Made by a program: the position numbers and the translations under genes. The notes below the pieces were generated by a model, which saw only the letters and a program-made list of their open reading frames with translations, ran no database searches and was not told where the DNA came from. From IMG/VR virus record IMGVR_UViG_3300050581_000228: 64,000 bases of DNA; one strand, written 5' to 3'. Every line of letters starts with the position of its first letter. Position 1 is the first letter of the stretch. This DNA is from a virus. Lineage: Duplodnaviria; Heunggongvirae; Uroviricota; Caudoviricetes. Of this stretch, positions 4,210 to 61,643 are shown in pieces.

Positions 4210-4514
4210 GCTGGCTGTCCGTCCCTCCCGTTGACGCAAGGCGTATTGGCATTGCGCAGCGGCACCCCATGCTGCTCGAAACAGGCGACTCCGAGCGTCA
4301 CGACTTTTCGCAGACTCTCCAAGGTCTTCTCGTCGCCGTCCTCGCAGGTTGCCATGCGGAACGCCTGGTCAAGGTAGTGCCCCATGTAGACCAGGAATTC
4401 GCCGACAGTGCGCTTGTGCTCCTGGAAAGTGCCGTTCCATTGGCGTTGCCCCCAGCGGCGGGCTTGGTAGGCACGCTCGCTGGCAATCGCGTCGAAAATC
4501 ATGTCGATGGTCAT
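4206..4514 (-). CDS. hypothetical protein, possibly an all-alpha MazG-like NTP pyrophosphohydrolase
   Basis: 102 aa. ERAYQARRW...VGEFLVYMGHYL...EDGDEKTLESL loosely resembles the MazG EExxE/D pattern. ATGA coupling to the ligase gene stop. Confidence 0.35.
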   Translation of the reverse strand: MTIDMIFDAIASERAYQARRWGQRQWNGTFQEHKRTVGEFLVYMGHYLDQAFRMATCEDGDEKTLESLRKVVTLGVACFEQHGVPLRNANTPCVNGRDGQPA

Positions 4515-5584
4515 TCGTTGTCCTGTGCGCCTTTCCGATCGAGATAGTCCGCGCTCACGCTTTTCAAGATCAGCCGACCGCCGGTAGGAGCGTAGAATTG
4601 CTCAACCTGCGGGGTGATGACGCAGCCTTCTCGATCCTTAAAGCTGCTCTTGATCTTGTCTGAAGTAGCCAGCGTCGTGGGACCGTAGGTGAACTGCCTC
4701 ACGAGGTCTTTGCTGAACGGTCCCTCGTAGAGCACGGGGACCAGTTCGACGCCGAACTGGGCGCAGGCGGCTTTCAACGCCTCCCAGTCGAGATACCTGC
4801 CGTTGACGCTGATGTCGAAAACCCGGTAGCCGTCCTTGTCCTTGACTCCATAGTCGAGGTCTTGAACACACGCCCCGAAGATTTCCCCGAAAACGATCAC
4901 CGAGTTCTTCTCATCGCAGAGATGCGTGAGGAGATTCAAGACGCATTCGTCTTCGAGCGGCTTCCAGTAGATGCACGCCTTGCCTTCTTCCGGTTTCTTC
5001 CGCCTGGTCCGATGGCTCCCGGCCATGAACTCGAATTCGCCGTTCTTGAGGATCAGACCAACCCGGCTGTTCGTGCCGTGAATCTTCTCCGTGATCCGAA
5101 CGATTGTTCCTTCCGCGAAGGCATCGGGATAGCGCCAGATGTTCTCGATTTCTGTGTACTTGTGGAACTGGCTGTCCTCTGGCGCGAGATCGCCGGCAAA
5201 ATACTTGGCCGGCGGCTCGTACTTCTTGGCGGCCCACATCACCGACACGTCGCTCCCCAGGGGATGGGCGCGCAAGAGGTCGGGGGCAGGGATGATGAAA
5301 CCGAAGCTCGGTTCGCCTCGCAGCCGGCAGGCTGCCACCCGACACTGGCACTTGATGCCGTCGAGTTCGGCGTGTTTGAGATACTTCTGGATGCCGAGCG
5401 TTTGGCTGACATCCTGTGGGATCAGAATTCCGGGATGGAAAAAGACAACCCGCTGACCGTGTTGGAACTCGCCCTTGCCGACGATCGTTGTAAGACCCTT
5501 GATGACCGCGATTTCCAGTTTGCTCGCGTTCGGATGGGGCCTGATCTCGTCAATGGCGGTGAGTTCAACGAAAATGTTGGACAT
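4511..5584 (-). CDS. RNA ligase (Rnl2-like nucleotidyltransferase, KIHGTN motif I) with N-terminal tRNA-binding-like OB domain (DraRnl/NgrRnl Rnl5-like architecture)
   Basis: Motif I TEKIHGTN sits at about aa 168. The N-terminal 130 aa (HPNASKLEIAVIKG...GQRVVFF...ACRLRGEPSFGFI) matches the Myf/EMAPII-type tRNA-binding domain pattern. Confidence 0.7.
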   Translation of the reverse strand: MSNIFVELTAIDEIRPHPNASKLEIAVIKGLTTIVGKGEFQHGQRVVFFHPGILIPQDVSQTLGIQKYLKHAELDGIKCQCRVAACRLRGEPSFGFIIPAPDLLRAHPLGSDVSVMWAAKKYEPPAKYFAGDLAPEDSQFHKYTEIENIWRYPDAFAEGTIVRITEKIHGTNSRVGLILKNGEFEFMAGSHRTRRKKPEEGKACIYWKPLEDECVLNLLTHLCDEKNSVIVFGEIFGACVQDLDYGVKDKDGYRVFDISVNGRYLDWEALKAACAQFGVELVPVLYEGPFSKDLVRQFTYGPTTLATSDKIKSSFKDREGCVITPQVEQFYAPTGGRLILKSVSADYLDRKGAQDNE

Positions 5585-10100: not shown

Positions 10101-10172
10101 AAGCCAGCGGCAGGAATCGAACCTGCGCCCCGCTGATTACAAGTCAGCGGCTCTACCATTGAGCTACACTGG
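10101..10172 (-). tRNA. tRNA-Thr (anticodon TGT)
   Basis: Reverse complement folds as GCCAGTG-TA-GCTC/AATGGTA/GAGC-C-GCTGA/CTTGTAA/TCAGC-GGGGC-GCAGG/TTCGATT/CCTGC-CGCTGGC-T, a canonical cloverleaf of 72 nt. Confidence 0.8.
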
Positions 10173-10337
10173 CTCCAGCCCGATCAGACCTGCGCGTCGG
10201 CGCTGGTCGTCTCGGCCTGGTCGCACGTGGCCGCCTCGGCGGCTTCGGTGCTCTGCTGGGCCTCGGGAAGAGCCTGCTCTTCCGGCTGCGGGCCACTCTG
10301 GGTTTCGTCGTGCGTCATTGCGAGCACTCCTGTGGGG

Positions 10338-13243: not shown

Positions 13244-15820
13244 CTACATCATCTCCGGCGCGCGAATCTTGACCTTCTCCGCTCCGTCCTTCTTCTCCGC
13301 CCAATTGGCCATCTCCTCGAACCAGGACATGCCGATTAGCGGCACCTTGTCGCGGTAGGACTCCACGACTCTACGAACCGTTGCCGTCACCTGCTTCACG
13401 ACGCTTGGGTGCGTGCTGCACATGAGTTCGTCATGGACGTTCATCGGGCCGACGAGAAGCTCATGGATTCCCGCTGGCTGGATGTCCCAGATCGCCCGCT
13501 GCACGGCCTTCGTGATCTGGCCGCCGGGCGACTGAATCTCATGGTTGGCCGCCGCTCGCATGTTGGCGGCTTGAATCTGGAAGGCGGCTCCGTACAAGGC
13601 GCTGGCAACGGCACCGCCGGCGGTCTGAATCCTGTCATTGCGATGGACCTTGACTGGGTGGTTCCGCCAGCCTTTCGGCGGTTTCCGAGCAAGCTCAAAC
13701 AGCGCCCGGCAAATCTTGTTCTCCAGGGTGAAGTAGCGGCGGAAGCCCAGGAAGCTCTCGACGTACTCGGCCGGCTCGTCCCACACGACCTGCGAGCCGA
13801 TGCCGCCGGGTTGCTTCATCGAGCAGAACTTCCTTATGGTTCGCTCGCGGGCCTTGCCGATGCCCTTATACCGATTGGCCCATTCCTCGTGAGCTTTCTT
13901 CGCCTGCGCCTCGTTGATGCTCAGATTGCGTTGCAGCGTCTTTTCGTTGCCGCCGTAAATCTCGGCGAAGACGCCGCTCTTGCCCTTCTTGTACTTCTCC
14001 TTGTCCGCGACCACTTCCTCGTAGCTGCAATCGAAGAGAACCATGCCGAAGAGGGCGTGAATCTTCTTGGTTCCAATGCCGGTCCCATCGCACTCCTCGC
14101 ATTCATGTGTGCCAGCGCCGTGGCACTTCCTGCACTTCTTCGATGAGCACTTGCCAGTACCGTTGCAGTCGATGCAAGGTGCCTTGGTAACAAGGGTCTT
14201 GCGAATCTCAGGATCGTTGTAAACCGCATCGGCGATCGTGACCTCGAAGCTGTCGAAGTCGCCTCCGCAGAGGTTGTAGCCCGGCCAAGCCAGTGGGAAC
14301 ATGCAGCGGACTTCATCCGATCCCTTGATCCCTTGGGCGTTCAGGCCATCGCCGCCGCTCATGCGGTTGCTGAGCGTGCCCACGATGTTGAAGCTCGCGT
14401 GGAACTTGCCAGCGAAGATCAACTTGGTGAAAAGCTCGACCTCCTTGATCGCGTGCTTGACATTCAGCAAGTCTTTAGCTCGCACAGCGGCGGGGTGAGG
14501 CTCACCGGCCTTGAGATGGCCGCGCCCGCGACACCGCTGGCAGACGCCACCCTCATACCTTCCGGTTCTATCGCACTTCATGCAGAACTCGTGGACGTGG
14601 ATGCCGTCCCATCCTTCAACGCCATCGGTGCCGATGTCATCTTCCTCGTCGTCTTCGATGACCTGGTACTTCTCGACCTTTTCGAGGTTCTGCTTCTTGG
14701 TAGACTCTTGAATCTTGAGGCTTTCGGTGTCGTCCATGACTTCCATCAGGTAGGCACGGACGGCGGCCGGCTTATTGATGTTGACGGGAGAGGCCGCAAC
14801 CACGGCCTGGGCCTTGGCCAACAACTCCGTCATCCCTTCGACGTTGATGGTGAAACCGCGCCAACGAATAACGGGCACCATGCACGCCAAGATCGAATCG
14901 TCATCGCCCGGCGTCGGAAAGCCGAAATGTTCATCGAGCGCTCGCGTGTAAACGATGTCGTCGGTTGCGTAGTCGCGGGCATCTGTCCGCGCTGCCCAGT
15001 GCTCGATGAAGTGATGGATGACAGCCGGCCACGCTCGGCCCGCGAGCTTCTGCTTGCCATCTTTTTCAATCCACACTTCCCAGTTCTTCTCCGGGCTGCT
15101 CACGGCCAGGGCAGTCGGGGCGTAGCCGAGTTCGTAAGGTCGCCACGCGGGGTCCGGTTCAACGTCCTTGTAGTGATACTTGGGCGTCAAGCCCATCGCA
15201 TGTTCCGCAAGGAACTTCAGTCCGCCGGCCGGATTGAATCGCAGCACGACATCCTTGAAGTCGGGGTCCACCAAGCCCGTTTTCGTATCGCGGCGATCAA
15301 ACGCCTGCCACTTGGGCGCGTCCTTGTCGGCGCTCTTGGCGAAGTAGATGTCGTCAAGCTCGATCCGCTGCTCCAACTCCTGCGCCAGGGCATAGGCCAG
15401 TGCGGTGGGCACTTTCCGAATCCTGATGTCCTCGCGGGCCATCAGGCTTTGATACGGTCCCTTGCGGGAGTGTAACAGGAGATCGAGGGCGCTAGCCGGC
15501 TTCACGCACGGGCCATCCTTACCCTTCGGTTCCAGCAGCGCGATCTCCTCGATATGCTCGCAAGGAATCCAATCGGGTTTCGCCAAGCGGAATGTCGTGT
15601 AGCACTTGACGATGTGAAACCAGTCGAACGCCAGGTTGAACCCGACAACGGTATGCTGGCAAATCCATTCGATCAAGGAAAGAGTCTCGGAGATTGGCCG
15701 CCGCCAAACCTCGTGGAGGACAATGGGACCATCTTCCTCAGCGTACTGGAGGAGCACCATTTGGGAATGCAGCCCGCACGTCTCCGTATCGAGGTAGACT
15801 TTCGATGGAAAGTCACTCAT
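13244..15820 (-). CDS. family A DNA polymerase with 3'-5' exonuclease domain and DnaJ-type CxxCxGxG zinc-finger insertions
   Basis: Exo I VYLDTETCGL. Motif A GGDFDSFEVTIADAV. Motif B KEKYKKGKSGVFAEIYGG. Motif C VHDELM. Inserts CMKCDRTGRYEGGVCQRCRGRGH and CIDCNGTGKCSSKKCRKCHGAGTHECEECDGTG. Confidence 0.9.
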   Translation of the reverse strand: MSDFPSKVYLDTETCGLHSQMVLLQYAEEDGPIVLHEVWRRPISETLSLIEWICQHTVVGFNLAFDWFHIVKCYTTFRLAKPDWIPCEHIEEIALLEPKGKDGPCVKPASALDLLLHSRKGPYQSLMAREDIRIRKVPTALAYALAQELEQRIELDDIYFAKSADKDAPKWQAFDRRDTKTGLVDPDFKDVVLRFNPAGGLKFLAEHAMGLTPKYHYKDVEPDPAWRPYELGYAPTALAVSSPEKNWEVWIEKDGKQKLAGRAWPAVIHHFIEHWAARTDARDYATDDIVYTRALDEHFGFPTPGDDDSILACMVPVIRWRGFTINVEGMTELLAKAQAVVAASPVNINKPAAVRAYLMEVMDDTESLKIQESTKKQNLEKVEKYQVIEDDEEDDIGTDGVEGWDGIHVHEFCMKCDRTGRYEGGVCQRCRGRGHLKAGEPHPAAVRAKDLLNVKHAIKEVELFTKLIFAGKFHASFNIVGTLSNRMSGGDGLNAQGIKGSDEVRCMFPLAWPGYNLCGGDFDSFEVTIADAVYNDPEIRKTLVTKAPCIDCNGTGKCSSKKCRKCHGAGTHECEECDGTGIGTKKIHALFGMVLFDCSYEEVVADKEKYKKGKSGVFAEIYGGNEKTLQRNLSINEAQAKKAHEEWANRYKGIGKARERTIRKFCSMKQPGGIGSQVVWDEPAEYVESFLGFRRYFTLENKICRALFELARKPPKGWRNHPVKVHRNDRIQTAGGAVASALYGAAFQIQAANMRAAANHEIQSPGGQITKAVQRAIWDIQPAGIHELLVGPMNVHDELMCSTHPSVVKQVTATVRRVVESYRDKVPLIGMSWFEEMANWAEKKDGAEKVKIRAPEMM

Positions 15821-16139
15821 CGTCATCCTCATCGTGCGGTAGGAATGGACAGCACTCCCAGGCATCTGGATATTCACCTAGTTCCTGGAGCTTTGCCAAA
15901 GCACTCCGAACAGCGAATACGGCGTTGTCGCACTGCTCTTGTGCAACGTGCCATCCTTTACAACGACACACGTCCTCGAAGTCATCTTCACACTCGTAGG
16001 CCACCTCGATAGCGCAGGCATAATCCTGCCAGGCTTGAGCAATGTGACGAAAGCGGCCACATTCACAAGTGAGTCGCCTCACGCGAATCAGGAGACAAGT
16101 GGTGATAGCCAGGAATAGAACACTTATCAGTAGGATCAT
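15813..16139 (-). CDS. hypothetical membrane-anchored Cys-rich protein
   Basis: N-terminal TM segment MILLISVLFLAITTCLLI; acidic C-terminus; several Cys pairs. Confidence 0.35.
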   Translation of the reverse strand: MILLISVLFLAITTCLLIRVRRLTCECGRFRHIAQAWQDYACAIEVAYECEDDFEDVCRCKGWHVAQEQCDNAVFAVRSALAKLQELGEYPDAWECCPFLPHDEDDDE

Positions 16140-16141
16140 GG

Positions 16142-16537
16142 TTATGGCACTTTCGGCCGAGGCGTGAACACCTTGTAGCCGTCCTCGTCGTAGGTCAAAT
16201 CAGAGTAGTAGCGTTTGTCGATGGATCGTTGTTCGGCCTCTTGCTCAAGCATGAACCGCTCGTAACGTTCCTCAGCATCCCACGCCTTCAGTGCTTGCTT
16301 GAGTGTTGGAAAGATGCCCAAGAGCGCGCCCCGGTAGGTGGCCCTAGCGCGATCGCCAACGACCTCAACGCCCTCGCCGAATGGCAGGAGTCGTCGGGCC
16401 TTGGGCGGCGGAATAGGCCGTTTCTGGGCAATCGCTTCCTTGACGGTTTCTGCTTCGTCCTCTTCAAGGCGATAGATCACCTTGCCGTTCGGCAGCTTGA
16501 CAGCGAATTGGAAGTCGTTCTCGTATTGCTCGTACAT
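16142..16537 (-). CDS. hypothetical protein
   Basis: 131 aa ORF with an ATG start; no motif recognised. Confidence 0.4.
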   Translation of the reverse strand: MYEQYENDFQFAVKLPNGKVIYRLEEDEAETVKEAIAQKRPIPPPKARRLLPFGEGVEVVGDRARATYRGALLGIFPTLKQALKAWDAEERYERFMLEQEAEQRSIDKRYYSDLTYDEDGYKVFTPRPKVP

Positions 16538-16547
16538 GGTGTAAGCT

Positions 16548-16670
16548 CAGAGGGCCTCGGCATTCCACACGGCTTCCGCGTGCCACGCGGGTGTCACCGT
16601 TACAGCCTGGCTAAGGCAGTCCTAGTCATTGGCCGTGCGGTCTATAGGTTCAGCGCAGTTGCGCGCCGAG
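16548..16670 (-). ncRNA. candidate structured RNA in the rsr 3' intergenic region (14 bp perfect inverted repeat closing a roughly 95 nt domain; contains UGACUAG)
   Basis: CAGAGGGCCTCGGC at about 16548-16561 pairs with GCCGAGGCCCTCTG at about 16657-16670. The minus-strand RNA contains CAAUGACUAGGAC. Strand is assigned by context. Coordinates carry about 8 nt uncertainty because of the display/ORF-track discrepancy here. Confidence 0.3.
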
Positions 16671-16690
16671 GCCCTCTGATGATTCAGGGC

Positions 16691-18352
16691 CTAGTTGCGA
16701 ATGAAGTCCGCCATGAGGGCGGGACAGGAGGCGTCGAAGCCTACCAGGTCAAGCATCCCAGCGTCGTTCGGATCAGCGATCGTAAACCCGGTGGCCGTCA
16801 TGCCGACAACGATCAGCTTGGCGTTGATGCCCGTGGCCTGACGGTACTGCATGAGGGCCTGACTGGGATGAATCTGCCCGGCCCAGGTCTCGTTGTCCGT
16901 GTAGACCACGAAGGCGTCCACTTCGAGCCGGTGTTCGAGGGCATAGATCATTGGCAGGGCACAGTCGGTCCCGCCCATCGGAATCTGCTCGATTGCCTGG
17001 ATCACGCCGTTGAGGCCCTGCCTCTTGGAGATGTCCACGGGCACCAGTTCGTGTGAGAAGCCGACCACATGCGTCTGCGGCTCGATCTTGTGAGTCACCA
17101 TCGACATGCAGGCGACGGCCTTGCGGCAGTCCAGATGCGTATTGGCCAGGTACTCCCAGCCCATCGACCCTGACACGTCCAGGGCCAACAGATGCCGCTT
17201 GCCGGTCGGCTCGACGGCATCGAAAGCCGAGTAGAAGGCATCCTCCAATGCAGCCGTGACTTGCTGTACCGGCTGCCATGTGAGGCTGCCTTTGATCCCG
17301 TGCCCTTGCCCGTAAGTGTCGGCTGCAATCAGAACGGACAATGGATGCACACGAGCACCTTTGAGCCGTTCGGTGTTGGTGAGCGTGTCGCACACCAGCT
17401 TCGTCGCTAGCGATAATGGCTTGAGCAGGCCCACGCTGGTCATCTTGCCGAGGTTGCGAATCATGGCCGTGGGCGGCAGATTCGGCAGCAAGGCGTCCCA
17501 GACCGCTGGGCTGCCAAGCAGCGTATTCGGCACGTGTTCCAAGGTCAGGCCGAAGGCTTGGATCAGCCGGACGGCCTCCTTCTCGTCACTGGGACCGAGC
17601 TTGTTGATCTCATTGAAGCCGGTGACGATCCGCAGATCACATGAACACGGCGGAAGCTCGCCCTTGGTAATCCAGTGATACAGGGCGTTGTGGTCGGAAT
17701 CAGTCGCCACCGGATGGCTCAGTCGCAGCACGTCGCGGTGCGTATAGCCAGCCCGGTTGCGGTACTTCGTGACTTGATAGGCCAGCTTGTCAGCAGGTTT
17801 CGTGTTGTACCAGACCGCAACCGCTTCACGTAGACCACGGCCCCAGCCGCGCAGTTCTTTGCAGTTGGCGACGAATTGGAACAAGTGCGTTGAAGTTCGG
17901 CACACGTGCGGGACAAAGCCAAGAGCCATGCGCCGAGCCGAATCGTTGTCCATCTGACTGGCCAAGAGTGCCAAAGCGAAGATCGCGGCGTCATTCTTGG
18001 GAGCACGTCCCGACTCGCTGATGGAAACAATCGTATCGACGGTCTGCGTTGGGTTGGCAGCCGCACACTCGATCACCACGGCGGCATTGTCAGCCGTCAA
18101 CTGGCGCTCGCCCACGTAGTAGGTGCCGCCCTCGCTGCCCAAGATCAAGAACCGCTCTAGTCTGCTCCAGCAATCCAGCGTATGGTTGTAGCCACCAGCA
18201 TTGTTCTGCGCCTGGCGTTTGCCAGGGATCGGCAGGCTCTGCGGGGTGACTCGGGACGACACGTGCTTGGCTAGGGTCTTCATCCAACGATCTCCAAGTG
18301 AAAGAATTGGGCGAGGAACTGCCGTGGGTGTCATCATTGCCAGATAACCCAC
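16691..18352 (-). CDS. rsr: Ro60/Rsr-like protein (TROVE-like helical N-terminal region plus C-terminal vWA domain with MIDAS)
   Basis: 553 aa, GTG start. C-terminal vWA HLLALDVSGSMG...GGTDCALPM (DxSxS...T MIDAS) preceded by about 350 aa of helical repeats. Size and architecture match Ro60 orthologs. Y-RNA-like motifs lie on both sides. Confidence 0.7.
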   Translation of the reverse strand: MGYLAMMTPTAVPRPILSLGDRWMKTLAKHVSSRVTPQSLPIPGKRQAQNNAGGYNHTLDCWSRLERFLILGSEGGTYYVGERQLTADNAAVVIECAAANPTQTVDTIVSISESGRAPKNDAAIFALALLASQMDNDSARRMALGFVPHVCRTSTHLFQFVANCKELRGWGRGLREAVAVWYNTKPADKLAYQVTKYRNRAGYTHRDVLRLSHPVATDSDHNALYHWITKGELPPCSCDLRIVTGFNEINKLGPSDEKEAVRLIQAFGLTLEHVPNTLLGSPAVWDALLPNLPPTAMIRNLGKMTSVGLLKPLSLATKLVCDTLTNTERLKGARVHPLSVLIAADTYGQGHGIKGSLTWQPVQQVTAALEDAFYSAFDAVEPTGKRHLLALDVSGSMGWEYLANTHLDCRKAVACMSMVTHKIEPQTHVVGFSHELVPVDISKRQGLNGVIQAIEQIPMGGTDCALPMIYALEHRLEVDAFVVYTDNETWAGQIHPSQALMQYRQATGINAKLIVVGMTATGFTIADPNDAGMLDLVGFDASCPALMADFIRN

Positions 18353-18442
18353 GCGCTTCGGCCCAATGTTTTGCCGGGCAAGGAATGCCGATCGGTGTTT
18401 GTCAACTGAAGGTGAGATAACCGATGCAGCTTCGGCCCGGAG

Positions 18443-18572
18443 GCACGCCGGTAGGACTCGAACCTACGACCACAGGTTCCCTTTGTGATAACGCTCCCGA
18501 TTCGGCCCATCAGGCAAGAGACTCGAAAGCGATTTCTGATACCTGCGCTCTGACCAACTGAGCTACGGCGTA
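18443..18572 (-). ncRNA. tRNA-like gene 1 with about 56-63 nt intervening module inside the anticodon stem-loop (Y-RNA-like/intron-like)
   Basis: Acceptor TACGCCG/CGGCGTG. D-arm GCTC-AGTTGGTCA-GAGC. Anticodon stem CAGGT...ACCTG enclosing 63 nt. Variable loop TGGTC. T-arm GTAGG-TTCGAGT-CCTAC. The insert contains CGCUUUC...UCUCUUGCC...UGGGCCGAAUCGGGAGCGUUAUC. Confidence 0.5.
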
Positions 18573-18581
18573 CACGAGAGC

Positions 18582-18701
18582 GGACACCGGCGGGGATCGA
18601 ACCCGCAACACCCCGTTATCAGCGGATAACGCTTTGCCTTCGGCCCAGAGGGCAAGAGATGGAAAGCGCGTTAGGTGCTTTGCCGATTAAGCTACGGCGT
18701 C
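18582..18701 (-). ncRNA. tRNA-like gene 2 with 49 nt homologous module between the D-arm and an anticodon-arm-like hairpin (loop CUGAUAA, would read GAU)
   Basis: Acceptor GACGCCG/CGGTGTC (one G-U pair). D-arm GCTT-AATCGGCA-AAGC. T-arm GCGGG-TTCGATC-CCCGC. Insert CGCUUUCC AUCUCUUGCC CUC UGGGCCGAAGG CAAAGCGUUAUC, with outer stem CGCUUU/AAAGCG covarying against CGCUUUC/GGGAGCG in gene 1. Confidence 0.5.
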
Positions 18702-18709
18702 CAAATCGT

Positions 18710-18743
18710 TCTCTATTTAAGACGACAGGCGGGGAGGGGTTTT
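18710..18743 (-). promoter_or_regulatory. conserved 34 bp promoter-like motif immediately upstream of tRNA-like gene 2 (identical copy upstream of the 61667 ORF)
   Basis: TCTCTATTTAAGACGACAGGCGGGGAGGGGTTTT here equals the reverse complement of 61609-61643, which lies 24 nt upstream of a plus-strand start codon. Confidence 0.4.
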
Positions 18744-19549
18744 GCCGTCAGATTTTGTCCCGTTTTTGCCAATTCAATGTCCTGATCGAACTCGTCATCG
18801 CTGATATAACCCGCACACCATGCGCCCATCCGCGTAGCGAGACCTTCAAGGCCGGCTTCCAGCAATTGCCCGATGCGGGCATTGATCTCCTCCTTGCCTC
18901 GCCGATACCGGAACTTCCTGCGATACCGAGGGTTGACGATGAGCTTCCGCTTGTGCTTGCCCCGAGCCGCAATGATTTCATCGGCCGCCTGAATTTGCTC
19001 ATCGGCGGGGAGCTTCACGAGGGCATCCACGTCGAGCAAAGTCAGCATCCGGGCGGCGACCTTCTCACGGAGTTCCTCGGGAAGCTCCATGATCCGTAGC
19101 CGCTGATGCACCCACCGCGTATCGCGGTTCATTTCCTGGGCGATCGTCCGCAACGATGTGCCGGCGGGAAAACGACGAGCAATCGCTTGTGCCTGTTCGA
19201 GCGGATTGAGGTCTTCGCGCTCCAAGTTCTCGGTCAGGTTTAGAATCTCTGCCGCACGGTCAGTAAGACCTTGCCGGATGTTCGCCGGGATATTGGTCCA
19301 TCTCAGAAACGTCTTGACCGCCGCCAGACGGCGGAAACCGGCGACCAGGCGGTATGGCTCAATGAAGCCGACCTGACTGTCCTCGCGCCGCTGGAGGATC
19401 ACCGGGATTTCAAGCCCGGCTTGCGCGATGTTGTCGGCCAGCCCCTTCACGGACTGAAACGTGAACACATTGCGGCAATTGAAATCAGGATCGACCCAGA
19501 TGTCGGCCAGCGGAACGTCGTATGCGTCGTAACGACTAAGGCGTTCCAT
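18713..19549 (-). CDS. ParB-like nuclease domain protein
   Basis: Start MERLSRYDAYD. ParB box PYRLVAGFRRLAA (GxRRxxA). Confidence 0.65.
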   Translation of the reverse strand: MERLSRYDAYDVPLADIWVDPDFNCRNVFTFQSVKGLADNIAQAGLEIPVILQRREDSQVGFIEPYRLVAGFRRLAAVKTFLRWTNIPANIRQGLTDRAAEILNLTENLEREDLNPLEQAQAIARRFPAGTSLRTIAQEMNRDTRWVHQRLRIMELPEELREKVAARMLTLLDVDALVKLPADEQIQAADEIIAARGKHKRKLIVNPRYRRKFRYRRGKEEINARIGQLLEAGLEGLATRMGAWCAGYISDDEFDQDIELAKTGQNLTAKPLPACRLK

Positions 19550-19565
19550 AGATACCTCGGTAGAC

Positions 19566-19592
19566 GAAAAACGGCCCGGCCGAAGCCGGGCC
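19566..19592 (-). terminator. rho-independent terminator downstream of tRNA-Asn
   Basis: Minus-strand GCCCGGCTTCGGCCGGGCC followed by GTTTTTCG. Confidence 0.55.
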
Positions 19593-19595
19593 AAA

Positions 19596-19670
19596 GGCTG
19601 CATCGCCTGGGGTCGAACCAGGAACCACAGCATTAACAGTGCCGCGCTCTACCATTTGAGCTACGATGCA
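19596..19670 (-). tRNA. tRNA-Asn (anticodon GTT)
   Basis: TGCATCG-TA-GCTC/AAATGGTA/GAGC-G-CGGCA/CTGTTAA/TGCTG-TGGTT-CCTGG/TTCGACC/CCAGG-CGATGCA-G-CC. Confidence 0.8.
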
Positions 19671-19676
19671 GTGAGA

Positions 19677-20015
19677 CTAGCTCAGGGTATCGGTCACGAG
19701 CGAGTCAAGCGGTACGCTGGCCGAAACGGCGCACTCCCTGCGAGGAAATGGGATGATGTACTCTCGGTCCTCCGGTTTATCTGGGCCGTGAGCGGTCAGG
19801 GCATTGACACCCTCTTTGCCAACCGGCTCATAGGTCTCGCGGAAGATGTCGTCCTTGCAGGGATAAAGTTCGCCCTTAACGCCCTGGACGATCCAATCGC
19901 CAGGCTCGACGATCAAGTCCTGACCGTGAAGTGTCTGGTTTCCGGGGATCACAACCCGCTGCATGACGCGCTCGGCATTGACAACTACGGGCTTCTTACG
20001 AAAGGCAGCAGGCAT
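19677..20015 (-). CDS. hypothetical protein
   Basis: Probable start MPAAFRKKPVVVNAERV; no motif recognised. Confidence 0.4.
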   Translation of the reverse strand: MPAAFRKKPVVVNAERVMQRVVIPGNQTLHGQDLIVEPGDWIVQGVKGELYPCKDDIFRETYEPVGKEGVNALTAHGPDKPEDREYIIPFPRRECAVSASVPLDSLVTDTLS

Positions 20016-20156
20016 TACGAATCTCCAAAGAACCCGGCCGGGGCCAGACGATCCGGCGAGTCCGGCCGGGAGCAAATGGCGGCGGGTCCGGGCGAAATCT
20101 GAGGCCAATCAACCTCTAGCTCTCTGGCTACGTTCGCCGCTTTGCCGCCACCTCGA

Positions 20157-21470
20157 TCATTTGAGTGGGCCGATGTCCCGGCCGCCGTCGATGATGTAGC
20201 GCTGCGGCCCATTCTTTTCATTCTCGTGCCGCAGCTTCACGTTCAGACGCCACGTCAATCCATGCTTTGGATTGACTCCGTGAAACCACTGGGCCGGCTC
20301 CCGGTAGCCCGACAGGCTGTTGTACGCAAAGGCGTCGGTTCCGAGCCAACTGCCGTTGACCAGGAGTTCGCCATCCACGTCAGACAGAGTGCTTGCCGCA
20401 TGGTGGTGGCCACAGCAGAAGTAGCGGCATCGCTTGGCACCGGCCGCCGCACCCAGGGCGATCAAGCCCTTCTGACGCCGGACCATGCCGTACCACGGGA
20501 TTCCAAGGCTGCTGCGGCAATCGTCGCCATGCGAAACGTTGAAGCCGACACCGTTGATGTTGACGTTCGCCGACCAGGCGTCCGGGATCGTGAAGTAGAC
20601 GTTCTCCAAGCCACGGCAATGCAGCCGGGCGATCTCCCCGACCAGGTAGTCCCAGTTATCATGGGCACCGAGGTAGTCTTTCTTTGGTGTCCGCCGGCCG
20701 TGGTTGCCCGCAAGATACAGGACGTTGACCTGCTCGAAGTGGGCCGCTAGGTCGCGGTACATCAGCGCGTGAAGCTGGCCGATCGCCAGGCAGTTCTTGA
20801 ACTGGTTGCGGTAGTAGCTTCGCTCGCAGGCCCGGTGGATTTCACCGCTCGTGAAGTCCCCGTAAGCCAGCACCCAGAGCACCGGGAAGTGGAACTTGGG
20901 ACTCAGGGTGTTCTGCGTCCATTCCACGACGGTATTGACGTAGCGCTCAGCGCGGGCGCACGAGATCGGAAAGTTGTATTCTTCCAATCCACCGACCTCT
21001 TCTGGCCGCACAACGGCGTCGTGATGACCGTCGCTCATGTGCATCACGCAATGCTCGACGATCTGTGCCTTTGGCCGCAAGACGATCTGTGACGGCAACG
21101 CCCTGAAAGGCTTGATCCGCTGCTCCATCTCGGCGGTGATCGCCCGGAACAGTCCTTGCGTCTTGGCGCTGGCCTTGCTCTTGGCCCGCTCTCGATTTCG
21201 CTCCTCGGTCAGATGGATGACCTCGGCCTCAAGCTCCAAGATGCGCTTGTTCGTCGGATCATGGTCCTCCAACTTCTTTCGCTGTCCGCCGGCTTTCTTC
21301 GGTGCGGGTTCGCCATTCGGCCACGGAACTTCCTTGTAGGCACGCCCTGTGGCAATATCGCTGACCAGGGATCGGCTTACCCTGTGCTTCTTGGCGATCG
21401 CCGCTTGAGTCATCCCATTACTGACGAGATCGGCCTTGATGCGCGCGGCCTTGTCCAGGTTCATCGTCAC
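20157..21470 (-). CDS. metallophosphoesterase with N-terminal HTH domain and coiled-coil linker
   Basis: HTH MTQAAIAKKHRVSRSLVSDIATGR. Metallophosphatase motifs VMHMSDGHHD, GNHG, GHHH. Confidence 0.7.
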   Translation of the reverse strand: MTMNLDKAARIKADLVSNGMTQAAIAKKHRVSRSLVSDIATGRAYKEVPWPNGEPAPKKAGGQRKKLEDHDPTNKRILELEAEVIHLTEERNRERAKSKASAKTQGLFRAITAEMEQRIKPFRALPSQIVLRPKAQIVEHCVMHMSDGHHDAVVRPEEVGGLEEYNFPISCARAERYVNTVVEWTQNTLSPKFHFPVLWVLAYGDFTSGEIHRACERSYYRNQFKNCLAIGQLHALMYRDLAAHFEQVNVLYLAGNHGRRTPKKDYLGAHDNWDYLVGEIARLHCRGLENVYFTIPDAWSANVNINGVGFNVSHGDDCRSSLGIPWYGMVRRQKGLIALGAAAGAKRCRYFCCGHHHAASTLSDVDGELLVNGSWLGTDAFAYNSLSGYREPAQWFHGVNPKHGLTWRLNVKLRHENEKNGPQRYIIDGGRDIGPLK

Positions 21471-26326: not shown

Positions 26327-26356
26327 GCGGGCCTCCGTTGCTTTACTGTCATACCG

Positions 26357-26508
26357 ATACAGTAGGGTAAAAAGACGAAAAATGTGACTGCGACATCGCC
26401 AGCCTCGAAAAAACGTGGAACGAAGGCCGGTTGTAACGCCGCGTCAATTACTGGCCTCTATTGCCATCTGCTTTCGCGGTCACATTTTTCAGGCATTTAC
26501 CCTACTGT
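26357..26508. promoter_or_regulatory. large palindromic element upstream of the primase gene (candidate operator or origin)
   Basis: Arm ATACAGTAGGGTAAAAAGACGAAAAATGTGAC at 26357-26388 faces the inverted arm GTCACATTTTTCAGGCATTTACCCTACTGTA at 26478-26508, with GCCGCGTCAAT between. These are A/T-rich patches in GC-rich DNA. A homologous single-arm module sits at 61486-61561. Confidence 0.4.
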
Positions 26509-61463: not shown

Positions 61464-61485
61464 GGAACAATTCCTTTCCGTACCA

Positions 61486-61561
61486 ATACAGTAGGGTAAA
61501 ACCGCGAAAATTGTGACGACAGATTCCGAGAATTCCAAGATTTCTGGATTGCCGCGTCAAT
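61486..61561. promoter_or_regulatory. second copy of the ATACAGTAGGGTAAAA..CGAAAA.TGTGAC...GCCGCGTCAAT module
   Basis: ATACAGTAGGGTAAAACCGCGAAAATTGTGAC at 61486-61517 and GCCGCGTCAAT at 61551-61561, homologous to 26357-26448. Confidence 0.35.
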
Positions 61562-61608: not shown

Positions 61609-61643
61609 GAAAACCCCTCCCCGCCTGTCGTCTTAAATAGAGA
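61609..61643 (+). promoter_or_regulatory. second copy of the 34 bp promoter-like motif, upstream of the 61667 ORF
   Basis: AAAACCCCTCCCCGCCTGTCGTCTTAAATAGAGA, followed by AAGGAG then ATG at 61667. Confidence 0.4.

What the first reader, a model, noticed from the sequence alone, without database searches (positions are those of the whole stretch)
16540..18745. Ro60/Rsr-like gene flanked by Y-RNA-like elements
A 553 aa TROVE-like plus vWA (MIDAS DVSGSM...GGTD) protein at 16691..18352 is a good Ro60/Rsr candidate. In bacteria Rsr is encoded next to Y RNAs (YrlA/YrlB) that carry a tRNA-like module and an Rsr-binding helix. Immediately upstream on the same strand are two tandem tRNA-like genes (18443..18701) that each carry a homologous inserted module. 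Downstream of rsr is a 14 bp inverted-repeat structured element. A conserved promoter-like 34-mer precedes the array. Together this looks like a phage-borne Rsr ribonucleoprotein module whose RNA partners are unusual tRNA-embedded elements.
Basis: partly seen in the sequence, partly recalled or inferred. Interest (0 to 1): 0.9.

Follow-up and report, generated by a model that had tools for sequence, protein, structure and literature searches.

The report
Phage Ro60 gene with tRNA-shaped Y RNAs
An uncultured tailed phage carries a Ro60/Rsr RNA-binding protein gene preceded by four partner "Y RNAs"; two of them are built like ordinary tRNAs with the Ro60-binding helix in place of the anticodon loop, an arrangement I found in no paper or Rfam family but which is common next to rsr genes in phages and bacteria.

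Summary
16691..18283(-) encodes a full-length Rsr/Ro60 (TROVE plus Ro60-type vWA). The likely start is ATG 18283, not GTG 18352.

Four Y-RNA elements lie upstream on the same strand:
- Two tRNA-like units, E1 (18582..18702) and E2 (18443..18573).

E1 and E2 are not canonical YrlA. YrlA has a closed acceptor stem-loop and its termini in the Ro-binding stem. E1 and E2 keep native tRNA order, have an open 7-8 bp acceptor, and carry the Ro-binding helix as a capped hairpin at the anticodon position. The Rfam YrlA hit (37.9 bits, below the cut-off of 69) spans the E1/E2 junction, the known tandem-tRNA artefact.

A covariance model finds 95 such elements in 65 rsr loci (15 phage, 50 bacterial). The cis acceptor is 99.7% paired with covariation at all seven pairs. 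CCA is encoded at the expected position in 17.

The downstream inverted-repeat element and the 34-mer are real but unexplained.

Verdict: a known system (phage Rsr-Y RNA) containing an apparently undescribed, widespread topological variant of tRNA-like Y RNA. RNA expression, processing and Rsr binding are untested.

The parts
18710..18743 (-). Exact 34-nt repeat AAAACCCCTCCCCGCCTGTCGTCTTAAATAGAGA. It ends 8 nt before E1 and overlaps the last codons and stop of the ParB-like ORF. The second copy is at 61610..61643(+). Candidate promoter, operator or processing signal for the array; function not shown.
   Evidence: Two exact matches of the core GTCGTCTTAAATAGAG in 64 kb. The alignment shows 34 identical bases, and 16 of them (CGTCGTCTTAgTAGAG) abut the first Y element in related phage L001. 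No sigma-70 consensus promoter in 16000-20200.
18582..18702 (-). E1, a type-A tRNA-order Y RNA. Order of parts: G-1; acceptor GACGCCG; U8 A9; D arm; CUAA linker; Ro-binding helix as a capped hairpin (CGCUUUCC..UUGCCC-UCU-GGGCCGAAGGCAAAGCG); GUUAUC; 3-bp variable-arm hairpin with 7-nt loop CUGAUAA; T arm GCGGG-UUCGAUC-CCCGC; acceptor CGGUGUC; C73.
   Evidence: R2 scores 107.8 bits, though E1 is one of the 12 seed sequences. The MFE fold closes the acceptor in cis and caps the Y helix. Orthologue L001 2375-2497 has compensatory changes in the cis Y helix, GG.AAAGCG/CGCUUUCC versus GGGUCAGCG/CGCUUACCC. The Levitt pair is A15:U48.
18443..18573 (-). E2, a type-B tRNA-order Y RNA. It has a full tRNA body (acceptor UACGCCG/CGGCGUG with G-1:C73, D arm, 5-bp anticodon stem CAGGU/ACCUG, 5-nt variable loop, T arm). 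A 60-nt insert replaces the anticodon loop and contains the capped Ro-binding helix (CGCUUUC..UUGCCU-GAU-GGGCCGAAUCGGGAGCG-UUAUC) and the motif AAGGGA.
   Evidence: Rfam tRNA 47.4 bits against a cut-off of 29, with a 60-nt insert. R2 60.6 bits. The acceptor covaries in cis: window UACGCCG/CGGCGUG, L001 CACGUUG/CAACGUG, L004 CACGUCG/CGACGUG. The anticodon stem covaries: CAGGU/ACCUG, CAAGU/ACUUG in L002, CGAGU/ACUCG in L010. The Levitt pair is G15:C48.
18374..18440 (-). Y3, a stand-alone Y-RNA hairpin: CCGGGC-C-GAAG..AUCGGU-UAUC...ACCGAU..CUUGCCCGG. It starts 2 nt after E2's C73.
   Evidence: R1 61.4 bits, E 4e-11. Fold -27.2 kcal/mol, z -3.9. Orthologue at L001 2639-2703.
18307..18366 (-). Y4, a stand-alone Y-RNA hairpin (UUGGGC-C-GAAGCGCGUGGGUUAUC...ACCCACGGCAGUUCCUCGCCCAA). 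Its 5' half resembles vertebrate Y4 by my recollection of that sequence. It ends 11 nt before the rsr ribosome-binding site and lies inside the over-long GTG-started ORF.
   Evidence: R1 61.8 bits. Rfam Y_RNA RF00019 gives only 20.6 bits, E 0.87. Fold z -3.45.
16691..18283 (-). rsr, a Ro60/Rsr RNA-binding ring protein of 530 aa: TROVE/HEAT-repeat ring plus vWA domain with MIDAS motif. GGAGA ribosome-binding site at 18291-18295.
   Evidence: Pfam. PDB matches to human Ro60, Xenopus Ro60 and D. radiodurans Rsr over the full length. NCBIfam Rsr 527.9 bits. N-terminus conserved across 12 homologues.
16545..16682 (-). Conserved multi-branch structured RNA element between the rsr stop and the next ORF (16142..16537). 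A 15-bp closing stem encloses three to four hairpins. No Ro-binding motif. Function unknown.
   Evidence: z -6.2. Conserved at the same position in L001 4604-4737 (nhmmer E 6e-17) and L082. Consensus fold has 42 pairs, 13 with compensatory changes among only 3 sequences. No Rfam match at E <= 10.

Best explanation
This is a phage Rsr/Ro60-Y RNA operon. The proposed transcript runs on the minus strand from about 18.71 kb through E1, E2, Y3, Y4, rsr and a structured 3' element.

Inferred processing. E1 and E2 fold as tRNAs with an open 7-8 bp acceptor, D and T arms with the conserved tertiary nucleotides, and a matching Levitt pair. Host tRNA-processing enzymes (RNase P at the 5' side, 3' trimming, possibly CCA addition) would therefore cut the precursor. 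That would release two ~120-130-nt tRNA-shaped Y RNAs and free the two ~60-65-nt hairpins, which begin 2-3 nt after the tRNA-like 3' ends.

Inferred binding. All four RNAs display the same bulged helix, GGGC-C-GAAG on one strand and CUUGCCC on the other, followed by GUUAUC. By homology this is the Rsr-binding site. In E1 and E2 the helix is a capped hairpin in the position of the anticodon stem. These units are therefore the native-order counterpart of YrlA, which is the circularly permuted form.

Inferred role, by analogy with D. radiodurans, Salmonella and Thermus phage phiLo. The RNAs gate the Rsr ring and tether it, through the tRNA-like elbow or the hairpin loops, to host partners such as PNPase. 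This would remodel or degrade structured RNA during infection.

Shown here: protein identity; RNA structures with covariation; strand and position linkage to rsr in 65 loci.

Not shown: transcription, processing, Rsr binding, partner identity.
For: Protein.

Hairpin family: the MAFFT-only alignment of 30 sequences is 79.9% paired against 66% in shuffles (0 of 500 reach it), and pair 2:73 shows CG14/AU7/UA6/GC3 with none unpaired. There are 100 hits in 50 of 81 phage sources, all on the rsr strand. 14 of 16 pairs show double changes.

Open-acceptor family:
- A descriptor scan finds 24 on the rsr strand and 0 on the opposite strand.
- Among T arms with a Y motif upstream, 25 are open, 24 closed and 0 both; the shuffle null gives a mean of 6.6 open, maximum 13.
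- R2 finds 95 elements at E <= 1e-11 in 65 loci, 92 of them on the rsr strand.
- The acceptor is 99.7% paired and all 7 pairs covary; D stem 100%, T stem 99.6%, outer Y helix 98.4%.
- 77 of 95 have no adjacent partner, so a junction reading is impossible for them.
- The -1:73 position is paired in 79%, against 32-40% further out.
- CCA is encoded right after N73 or N74 in 17 of 95, against 0-1 at other offsets.
- The cis Y helix forms: inner 5/5 pairs in 17 of 24, shuffle mean 5.1. UUCG and GUGA caps close it in L016 and L041.

Window versus L001: compensatory changes in cis in the E2 acceptor and the E1 Y helix.

Precedents: YrlA and RNase P/CCA processing of M. smegmatis YrlA; phage phiLo Ro60 with Yrl1/2 and host PNPase.
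Against: - There is no expression, end-mapping or binding data.
- Alignments A2 and A8 were fitted to the models, which inflates pairing percentages. E1 is in the R2 seed.
- The window's E1/E2 junction can also be drawn as a canonical YrlA. It gives a full-length Rfam match of 37.9 bits, about the same score as the accepted closed YrlA of mycobacteriophage Nidhogg (36.1 bits). That drawing has a 6/7-bp closed acceptor and a 7-nt GCUGAUA/UAUCAGA pairing.
- No CCA is encoded in the window's copies.
- No recognisable promoter was found.
- NCBIfam Rsr scores 527.9 bits, below the equivalog cut-off of 900.
- Library searches for prior descriptions were limited. The key reviews (Sim & Wolin 2018; Sim et al. 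2020) could not be read.
Confidence: 0.75

Rival explanations
1. The functional RNA is one canonical, closed-acceptor YrlA spanning the E1/E2 junction, about 18515..18650. Its parts would be the Y-stem 5' strand from E1's insert, E1's T arm, an acceptor stem closed by the 11-nt linker, E2's D arm, and the Y-stem 3' strand from E2's insert. The outer halves of E1 and E2 would be leftovers of a duplication.
For: Rfam YrlA matches 18523..18635 over the full model at 37.9 bits, E 5.8e-6. This is comparable to the scores for mycobacteriophage and Microbacterium phage YrlA (36-38 bits). The E1 3' strand and E2 5' strand pair at 6 of 7 positions. GCUGAUA in E1 is complementary to UAUCAGA in E2, and AAAGCG pairs with CGCUUU in either unit.
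Against: - Chen et al. 2014 state that tandem tRNAs give exactly this false positive.
- The score is below the gathering cut-off of 69.
- The fold of 18515-18650 has z = -0.2.
- In L001 the E2 acceptor changed CC to UU together with GG to AA on its own 3' strand, while the trans partner stayed the same.
- The 7-nt E1/E2 complementarity is not conserved in L001.
- The L001 E1 Y helix pairs 8 bp in cis but only 4 bp in trans.
- 77 of 95 family members are solitary.
- Under the 7/7 criterion both window units class as open and neither as closed.
Confidence: 0.12
2. The four elements are not released as stable trans-acting RNAs. They act in cis as a structured leader of the rsr mRNA, for example as Rsr-binding sites that autoregulate translation or stability. 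In this reading the tRNA-like folds serve only as nuclease punctuation or stabilisers.
For: All elements lie in one apparent transcription unit directly upstream of rsr. Y4 ends 11 nt before the ribosome-binding site. No separate promoters or terminators were found between them.
Against: - In other loci the same elements lie downstream of rsr (L016, L041, L012) or 2-4 kb away (L092, L095, L116), which does not fit a leader role.
- Encoded CCA ends in 17 of 95 argue for release as tRNA-like molecules.
- Experimentally studied Y RNAs processed from polycistronic precursors are stable Rsr-bound RNAs.
Confidence: 0.08
3. E1 and E2 are real decoding tRNA genes interrupted by an intron-like insert. 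The resemblance of the insert to Y RNA is incidental.
For: The Rfam tRNA model passes its cut-off for E2. The phage encodes two ordinary tRNAs nearby. The E1 variable-arm loop CUGAUAA looks like an anticodon loop.
Against: - ARAGORN calls neither unit.
- E2 has no anticodon loop, and E1 has no anticodon stem.
- From general knowledge, 60 nt is far too short for a bacterial group I tRNA intron.
- The insert carries the same motif and helix as the adjacent hairpins and as 100 hairpins next to rsr genes.
- The class occurs next to rsr in 65 loci.
Confidence: 0.03

Closest known systems
YrlA (Rfam RF02553; Chen et al. 2014, PMC4201824; Wang et al. 2018, bioRxiv 10.1101/312249)
   Same: Encoded next to rsr on the same strand. 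Has the Ro-binding GNCGAA-type motif, tRNA-like D arm, T arm, acceptor helix and variable-arm hairpin, and a Levitt 15:48 pair that covaries. The Y helix takes the place of the anticodon stem.
   Different: YrlA is described as a circularly permuted tRNA: its termini lie in the Ro-binding stem and its acceptor is closed by a loop. E1 and E2 have native tRNA order. Their termini are at an open 7-8 bp acceptor, and the Ro-binding helix is closed by a 3-nt loop. The Rfam model reaches only 37.9 bits (cut-off 69), and only across the junction of the two units.
M. smegmatis YrlA, which is cut by RNase P and receives CCA (Chen et al. 2014)
   Same: A Y RNA whose acceptor helix ends up open with a tRNA-like 3' end. 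It is processed from a precursor that also carries a hairpin Y RNA (YrlB) upstream of rsr.
   Different: In M. smegmatis the acceptor is transcribed closed, and cleavage yields two RNA pieces (82 and 65 nt). Here each unit would be a single continuous tRNA-shaped molecule.
Thermus phage phiLo Ro60 with Yrl1 and Yrl2 (NAR 2025, PMC12135203)
   Same: A phage-encoded Ro60 with two hairpin Y-like RNAs carrying a CGAA motif directly upstream. Binding to the phage Ro60 and to host PNPase has been shown. This is the best functional precedent for Y3 and Y4.
   Different: The text I read reports no tRNA-like Y RNA in phiLo. The phiLo protein is only distantly related to the window's Rsr (E 4e-6), whereas the window protein is close to cellular Ro60/Rsr.
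D. radiodurans Yrn1/Yrn2-tRNA precursor and the RYPER complex (Rsr-Y RNA-PNPase)
   Same: Several Y RNAs are co-transcribed with tRNA-type elements upstream of rsr. This supplies the proposed tether-and-gate mechanism.
   Different: In Yrn1 the tRNA-like features are partial and differently oriented. No PNPase gene or interaction was tested here.
Dimeric-tRNA origin model of YrlA (Sim & Wolin 2018, as cited by Wang et al. 2018)
   Same: The window holds exactly the predicted arrangement: two adjacent tRNA-type units next to rsr, whose T arm (unit 1) and D arm (unit 2) together match the YrlA model.
   Different: The model assumed ordinary tRNAs whose leftover arms later formed the Ro-binding stem. 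Here each unit already carries a complete Ro-binding helix. This suggests the order was helix insertion, then duplication, then permutation.

Membership tests
Ro60/Rsr (TROVE plus vWA ring protein) | TROVE/HEAT-repeat domain | tested here: met
   PF05731 E 6.6e-44. Full-length alignment to 9nen, 1yvp and 2nvo.
Ro60/Rsr (TROVE plus vWA ring protein) | C-terminal Ro60-type vWA domain with MIDAS motif | tested here: met
   PF25045 E 2.2e-67, residues 386-551 of the 553-aa ORF. DVSGSM and GGTD are present in the translation.
Ro60/Rsr (TROVE plus vWA ring protein) | NCBIfam Rsr equivalog cut-off | tested here: not met
   NF041674 scores 527.9 bits against a cut-off of 900. This makes it a divergent homologue, not a trusted equivalog.
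Ro60/Rsr (TROVE plus vWA ring protein) | Binds Y RNA or misfolded RNA | not testable with these tools
   Needs EMSA or co-immunoprecipitation.
Y RNA (hairpin type: Yrn2/YrlB/Yrl, metazoan Y) | Encoded near Ro60/Rsr on the same strand | tested here: met
   Y3 and Y4 lie 24-157 nt upstream of rsr. All 100 R1 hits are on the rsr strand.
Y RNA (hairpin type: Yrn2/YrlB/Yrl, metazoan Y) | Stem formed by the 5' and 3' ends, carrying a bulged helix with a GNCGAA-type motif | tested here: met
   GGGC-C-GAAG paired with CUUGCCC. Covariation shown.
Y RNA (hairpin type: Yrn2/YrlB/Yrl, metazoan Y) | Rfam Y_RNA RF00019 gathering score | tested here: not met
   20.6 bits against 38, E 0.87. That model is metazoan.
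YrlA (RF02553) | tRNA-like D and T arms with conserved tertiary nucleotides | tested here: met
   U8, A14, G18 G19, UUCGA T loop; Levitt pair A15:U48 in E1 and G15:C48 in E2. D stem 100% and T stem 99.6% paired in 95 members.
YrlA (RF02553) | Permuted order (T arm, closed acceptor stem-loop, D arm) with RNA termini in the Ro-binding stem | tested here: not met
   The units have D arm before T arm and an open acceptor pairing in cis. The Ro-binding helix is capped by UCU in E1 and GAU in E2.
YrlA (RF02553) | Rfam gathering score | tested here: not met
   37.9 bits against 69, and only across the E1/E2 junction.
tRNA | Cloverleaf with acceptor, D and T arms | tested here: met
   RF00005 scores 47.4 bits against 29 for E2. 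E1 is matched by R2 but not by RF00005.
tRNA | 5-bp anticodon stem with a 7-nt anticodon loop | tested here: not met
   E2 has a 60-nt insert in place of the loop. E1 has no anticodon stem. ARAGORN calls neither.

The most novel reading that the evidence does not exclude
Native-order, open-acceptor Y RNAs with tRNA-type 3' ends are a major class of Ro60 partner in phages and many bacterial phyla, and I found no description of them. They would be the form from which canonical, permuted YrlA arose by tandem duplication, with the window's E1-E2 pair as a living intermediate. Because they have a free tRNA-like acceptor end (8-bp stem, and encoded CCA in some), they may be substrates for CCA-adding enzyme, aminoacyl-tRNA synthetases or other enzymes that recognise the acceptor end. 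That would link Rsr directly to tRNA metabolism or repair.
Probability: 0.3. Interest if true: 0.8.

Novelty: new variant of a known kind. Interest (0 to 1): 0.6.

Why it matters
Ro60-Y RNA particles are conserved from bacteria to humans, where Ro60 is a lupus and Sjogren autoantigen. What the tRNA-like module of bacterial Y RNAs does, and how it arose, are still open questions.

This locus bears on both. It led to 95 related elements showing that many rsr genes are accompanied by Y RNAs that are tRNAs in native order, with an open and sometimes CCA-encoding acceptor, and with the Ro-binding helix in place of the anticodon loop.

- It gives a concrete test of the dimeric-tRNA origin model of YrlA.
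- It explains why YrlA searches find little in some phyla. Chen et al. found few in delta-proteobacteria, and 50 of the 80 bacterial rsr loci sampled here carry the open form.
- It raises the possibility of partners that recognise the acceptor end.

For phage biology, it adds a four-RNA Rsr operon in a phage that also carries an Rnl5-type RNA ligase and its own tRNAs. That combination is consistent with an RNA repair or RNA remodelling toolkit.

Tried and rejected
- Canonical YrlA across the junction. Considered first because of the Rfam hit. Demoted on cis covariation in L001, solitary family members, capped helices and the published tandem-tRNA caveat.
- Rfam gathering search of 19 related phage loci. 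It found no YrlA, so Rfam is insensitive here. Even the accepted mycobacteriophage YrlA reaches only 36 bits.
- INPHARED DNA search and TerL protein search. No close cultured relative (TerL <= 25% identity), so the host stays unknown.
- Sigma-70 promoter scan. Nothing was found, so the promoter reading of the 34-mer is unsupported.
- Motif search with fixed spacing. Too rigid; it found only one of the four copies.
- MAFFT alignment of all permuted elements. The Y-helix 3' strand aligned badly. I therefore modelled only the consistently aligned pairs and tested the inner helix with a separate script.
- Downstream element. An exact-pattern scan of IMG/VR gave only two true homologues. That is too few sequences for a function, and the element has no Ro-binding motif and no Rfam hit.
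- tRNA-with-intron reading. Rejected; see rivals.
- G-1:C73 as a tRNA-His-like identity. In the 95-member set U:A is as common as G:C, and where CCA is encoded after N74 there is an extra A before it. The feature is therefore an 8th acceptor base pair, not a histidine identity element.
- Reviews by Sim & Wolin 2018, Boccitto & Wolin 2019 and Sim et al. 2020 could not be opened, and no supplements of Chen 2014 are held. Prior description of the open form cannot be excluded.

Full report
**1. What is in the sequence**

The window is an uncultured tailed phage with 59% G+C. It encodes a large terminase, portal, major head protein and tape measure, plus a family A DNA polymerase, a helicase and a DNA ligase. 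It also carries two ordinary tRNAs (Thr 10101-10174, Asn 19596-19670). An RNA ligase of the DraRnl type sits at 4511-5584 (TIGR02306, 160 bits, above its cut-off). No cultured phage is close: TerL is at most 25% identical, and DNA similarity is limited to about 500 nt of Ro-like genes.

**2. The protein**

ORF 16691..18352(-) matches the Ro60-specific vWA domain (PF25045, E 2.2e-67) and TROVE (PF05731, E 6.6e-44). From ATG 18283 it aligns end to end with three solved structures:
- human Ro60, E 5e-125
- Xenopus Ro60, E 4e-120
- D. radiodurans Rsr, E 4e-117

Twelve phage homologues share the N-terminus M..AKHVS. A GGAGA sits 8 nt upstream of that ATG. The 23 extra codons of the GTG-started ORF overlap a conserved RNA hairpin. 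The gene is therefore most likely 16691..18283, 530 aa.

**3. The upstream RNAs**

Reading the minus strand, the motif GGGCCGAA-(8-10 nt)-GUUAUC occurs four times between 18646 and 18343 (family D1, plus direct reading).

The two proximal copies are self-contained hairpins, Y3 (18374..18440) and Y4 (18307..18366). Both have z-scores near -3.5 to -3.9.

I collected 80 rsr loci from IMG/VR and aligned 30 such hairpins with MAFFT alone. The proposed structure is a closing helix NNGGGC/GCCCNN with a bulged C, and an inner helix ending in GUUAUC.
- It is 79.9% paired against 66% in shuffles (0 of 500 reach it).
- Position 2:73 shows CG14/AU7/UA6/GC3 and no mispair.

A covariance model (R1) then found 100 hairpins in 50 of 81 sources, every one on the rsr strand. 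In the window it found exactly Y3 and Y4, at 61.4 and 61.8 bits. On that model-fitted alignment, 14 of 16 pairs show double changes.

These are hairpin Y RNAs of the kind shown experimentally to bind Ro60 in D. radiodurans, Salmonella and M. smegmatis and in Thermus phage phiLo.

**4. The tRNA-like units**

The two distal copies of the motif sit inside tRNA-like units.

*E2 (18443..18573).* It passes the Rfam tRNA model at 47.4 bits, with 60 nt in place of the anticodon loop.

*E1 (18582..18702).* It has acceptor, D and T arms but no anticodon stem. Its Y helix directly follows a CUAA linker after the D arm. A 3-bp hairpin with a 7-nt loop precedes the T arm.

In both units the Ro-binding helix is complete in cis and capped by a 3-nt loop: UUGCCC-UCU-GGGCC in E1 and UUGCCU-GAU-GGGCC in E2. 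Both keep U8, A14, G18 G19 and the UUCGA T loop. The Levitt pair is A15:U48 in E1 and G15:C48 in E2.

**5. Canonical YrlA or something else?**

Rfam's YrlA model does hit, at 18523..18635 with 37.9 bits and E 5.8e-6. However, the hit runs from E1's insert through E1's T arm, the 11-nt linker and E2's D arm into E2's insert.

YrlA is defined as a permuted tRNA with a closed acceptor loop and its termini in the Ro-binding stem. Chen et al. state explicitly that tandem tRNAs produce this kind of match, and they discarded such hits.

Several results favour the unit reading, meaning an open acceptor and native tRNA order:
- In the closest relative, L001 (Rsr 74% identical), the same two units occur in the same order. 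The E2 acceptor changed from UACGCCG/CGGCGUG to CACGUUG/CAACGUG. This is a double compensatory change within the unit, while the neighbour's strand is unchanged. L004 has CACGUCG/CGACGUG.
- The E1 Y helix changed from GG.AAAGCG/CGCUUUCC to GGGUCAGCG/CGCUUACCC in cis. The trans alternative keeps only 4 bp in L001.
- The window's 7-nt E1/E2 complementarity is absent in L001.
- L002, L004, L032, L058, L066 and L073 have such units with no adjacent partner unit.
- In L016 and L041 the Y helix is capped by UUCG or GUGA tetraloops.
- A descriptor requiring a T arm, a Y motif, a 7/7 cis acceptor and a D stem finds 24 elements on the rsr strand and none on the other.
- Among T arms with a Y motif upstream, 25 are open, 24 closed and none both. 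Shuffled acceptor strands give a mean of 6.6 open (maximum 13) and 2.2 closed.

Both topologies therefore exist in rsr phages. The cluster C mycobacteriophage Nidhogg has the closed form, at 36 bits with Rfam.

**6. How widespread is the open form?**

A scan of one genome per GTDB species with an Rsr profile returned 80 bacterial loci, mainly Myxococcota, Chloroflexota, Armatimonadota, Verrucomicrobiota, Gemmatimonadota and Planctomycetota. The descriptor found 71 open, 7 ambiguous and 28 closed elements there.

A second model (R2) was seeded with 12 type-A units. It modelled only the consistently aligned helices.
- In the phage set, real tRNAs score 45-50 bits, E2 scores 60.6 and E1 scores 107.8.
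- At E <= 1e-11 it finds 95 elements in 65 loci: 15 phage and 50 bacterial. 92 are on the rsr strand, and 77 have no adjacent partner.

On the resulting alignment:

| Helix | Cells paired |
|---|---|
| cis acceptor | 99.7%, all seven pairs covary |
| D stem | 100% |
| T stem | 99.6% |
| GCCC/GGGC closing helix | 98.4% |
| variable-arm hairpin | 81% |
| whole structure | 97.4% (76.3% in shuffles; at most 50.5% when partners are slid) |

This alignment is fitted to the model. However, the acceptor strands are pinned directly beside U8-A9 and the T stem, which leaves little freedom.

Outside the model, the flanks add three observations:
- Position -1 pairs with 73 in 79% of elements. Pairing falls to the 32-40% background from -2:74 onward.
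- CCA follows N73 in 10 elements and N74 in 7, against 0-1 at other offsets.
- The window's copies do not encode CCA. Y3 begins 2 nt after E2's C73, a spacing repeated in other loci.

These features point to tRNA-type end maturation. [quoted passage not shown]

**7. Mechanism proposed**

One transcript carries E1, E2, Y3, Y4 and rsr. Host tRNA-processing enzymes would release the RNAs. Rsr would bind the shared bulged helix. The tRNA-like elbow or the hairpin loops would tether Rsr to host factors such as PNPase, or gate its cavity. This follows the RYPER complex and phage phiLo.

Every step after the RNA structures is inference. A cis-regulatory role for Y4, which lies 11 nt from the ribosome-binding site, cannot be excluded.

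**8. The other two items in the finding**

*The 34-mer.* It is an exact repeat at 18710..18743(-) and 61610..61643(+). Each copy lies shortly upstream of a downstream feature. Its 3' 16 nt are conserved at the head of the array in L001. No sigma-70-type promoter is detectable, so "promoter-like" remains a guess.

*The downstream element (16545..16682).* It is strongly structured (z -6.2). It is conserved directly after rsr in two related phages (L001 and L082), with compensatory changes in its closing stem and two inner hairpins. It has no Ro-binding motif and no Rfam match, and it is missing in L002-L005. Its function is unknown. Candidate roles are a 3' stabiliser, a processing site, or a separate small RNA.

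**9. Comparison with what is known, and novelty**

Already known:
- phage Ro60 genes
- upstream hairpin Y RNAs
- tRNA-mimicking YrlA

What I could not find described is the native-order, open-acceptor form. It is absent from Rfam 15, from Chen 2014, from Wang 2018, from the phiLo paper and from five full-text searches.

Chen et al. report finding few YrlAs in delta-proteobacteria and cyanobacteria. In my sample, Myxococcota loci (the former delta-proteobacteria) are rich in the open form.

Wang et al. cite a model in which YrlA arose from a dimeric tRNA transcript. The window's E1-E2 pair is that configuration, except that each unit already holds a complete Ro-binding helix.

I therefore class the finding as a new variant of a known kind. 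I rate interest at 0.6, limited by the lack of any experimental evidence and by uncertainty about prior description.

Noticed in passing
window 18600-18625(-), and 37 of the 95 related elements (alignment A8): The variable-arm mini-hairpin of type-A units has a 3-bp stem and a 7-nt loop with consensus C-U-N-N-U-A-A (CUGAUAA in the window). This looks like an anticodon loop of ANN-decoding tRNAs (U33, U36, A37, A38). From memory, that is the pattern required for t6A37 modification.
   Followed up: partly
flanks of the 95 R2 hits (L084-L163 and phage loci); window 18702/18582 and 18573/18443: An extra -1:73 base pair is present in 79% of elements (U:A and G:C about equally). It does not extend further, giving an 8-bp acceptor. 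CCA is encoded after N73 or N74 in 17 elements. Both window units have G-1:C73 but no encoded CCA.
   Followed up: yes
window 26352-26388 and 61481-61517: A 37-nt repeat (86% identity), TACCGATACAGTAGGGTAAAAAGACGAAAAATGTGAC. The second copy lies about 90 nt upstream of the second copy of the 34-mer, so this may be a repeated regulatory region.
   Followed up: no
window 4511-5584(-): An RNA ligase of the D. radiodurans DraRnl (Rnl5) type, above the TIGR02306 cut-off, with an N-terminal OB fold. Together with Rsr and the phage tRNAs it suggests an RNA repair or remodelling toolkit.
   Followed up: partly
window 13244-15877(-): The family A DNA polymerase has a weak match to the cysteine-rich CXXCXGXG (DnaJ-type zinc finger) domain, below the Pfam cut-off, within the region matched by the polymerase domain model.
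   Followed up: no
window 18713-19633(-) and 19596-19670(-): The longest ParB-like ORF overlaps tRNA-Asn and a terminator-like hairpin (19593..19572 followed by UUUUU). Its true start must lie further downstream.
   Followed up: no
L032 2438-2665 and L004 2516-2598: A small ORF (~75 aa, MAEKLNQTEALRVILSRGKK...) sits between the tRNA-like Y RNA and the hairpin Y RNAs in two related phages. In L004 it is interrupted by a stop codon. It is absent from the window.
   Followed up: no
L165 4230-4362(-) (Microbacterium phage SM23, PQ655446.1): The Rfam YrlA hit (L165 4230-4295) overlaps the annotated tRNA-Asn (4265-4331) upstream of the gene annotated 'RNA-binding protein'. The GenBank record annotates no Y RNA there.
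   Followed up: partly
window 16142-16537(-): A 131-aa ORF (MYEQYENDF...) follows the structured 3' element. It has no Pfam, PHROG or NCBIfam match. L082 has an ORF with a similar N-terminus (MFQQYENDF) at the same position.
   Followed up: partly
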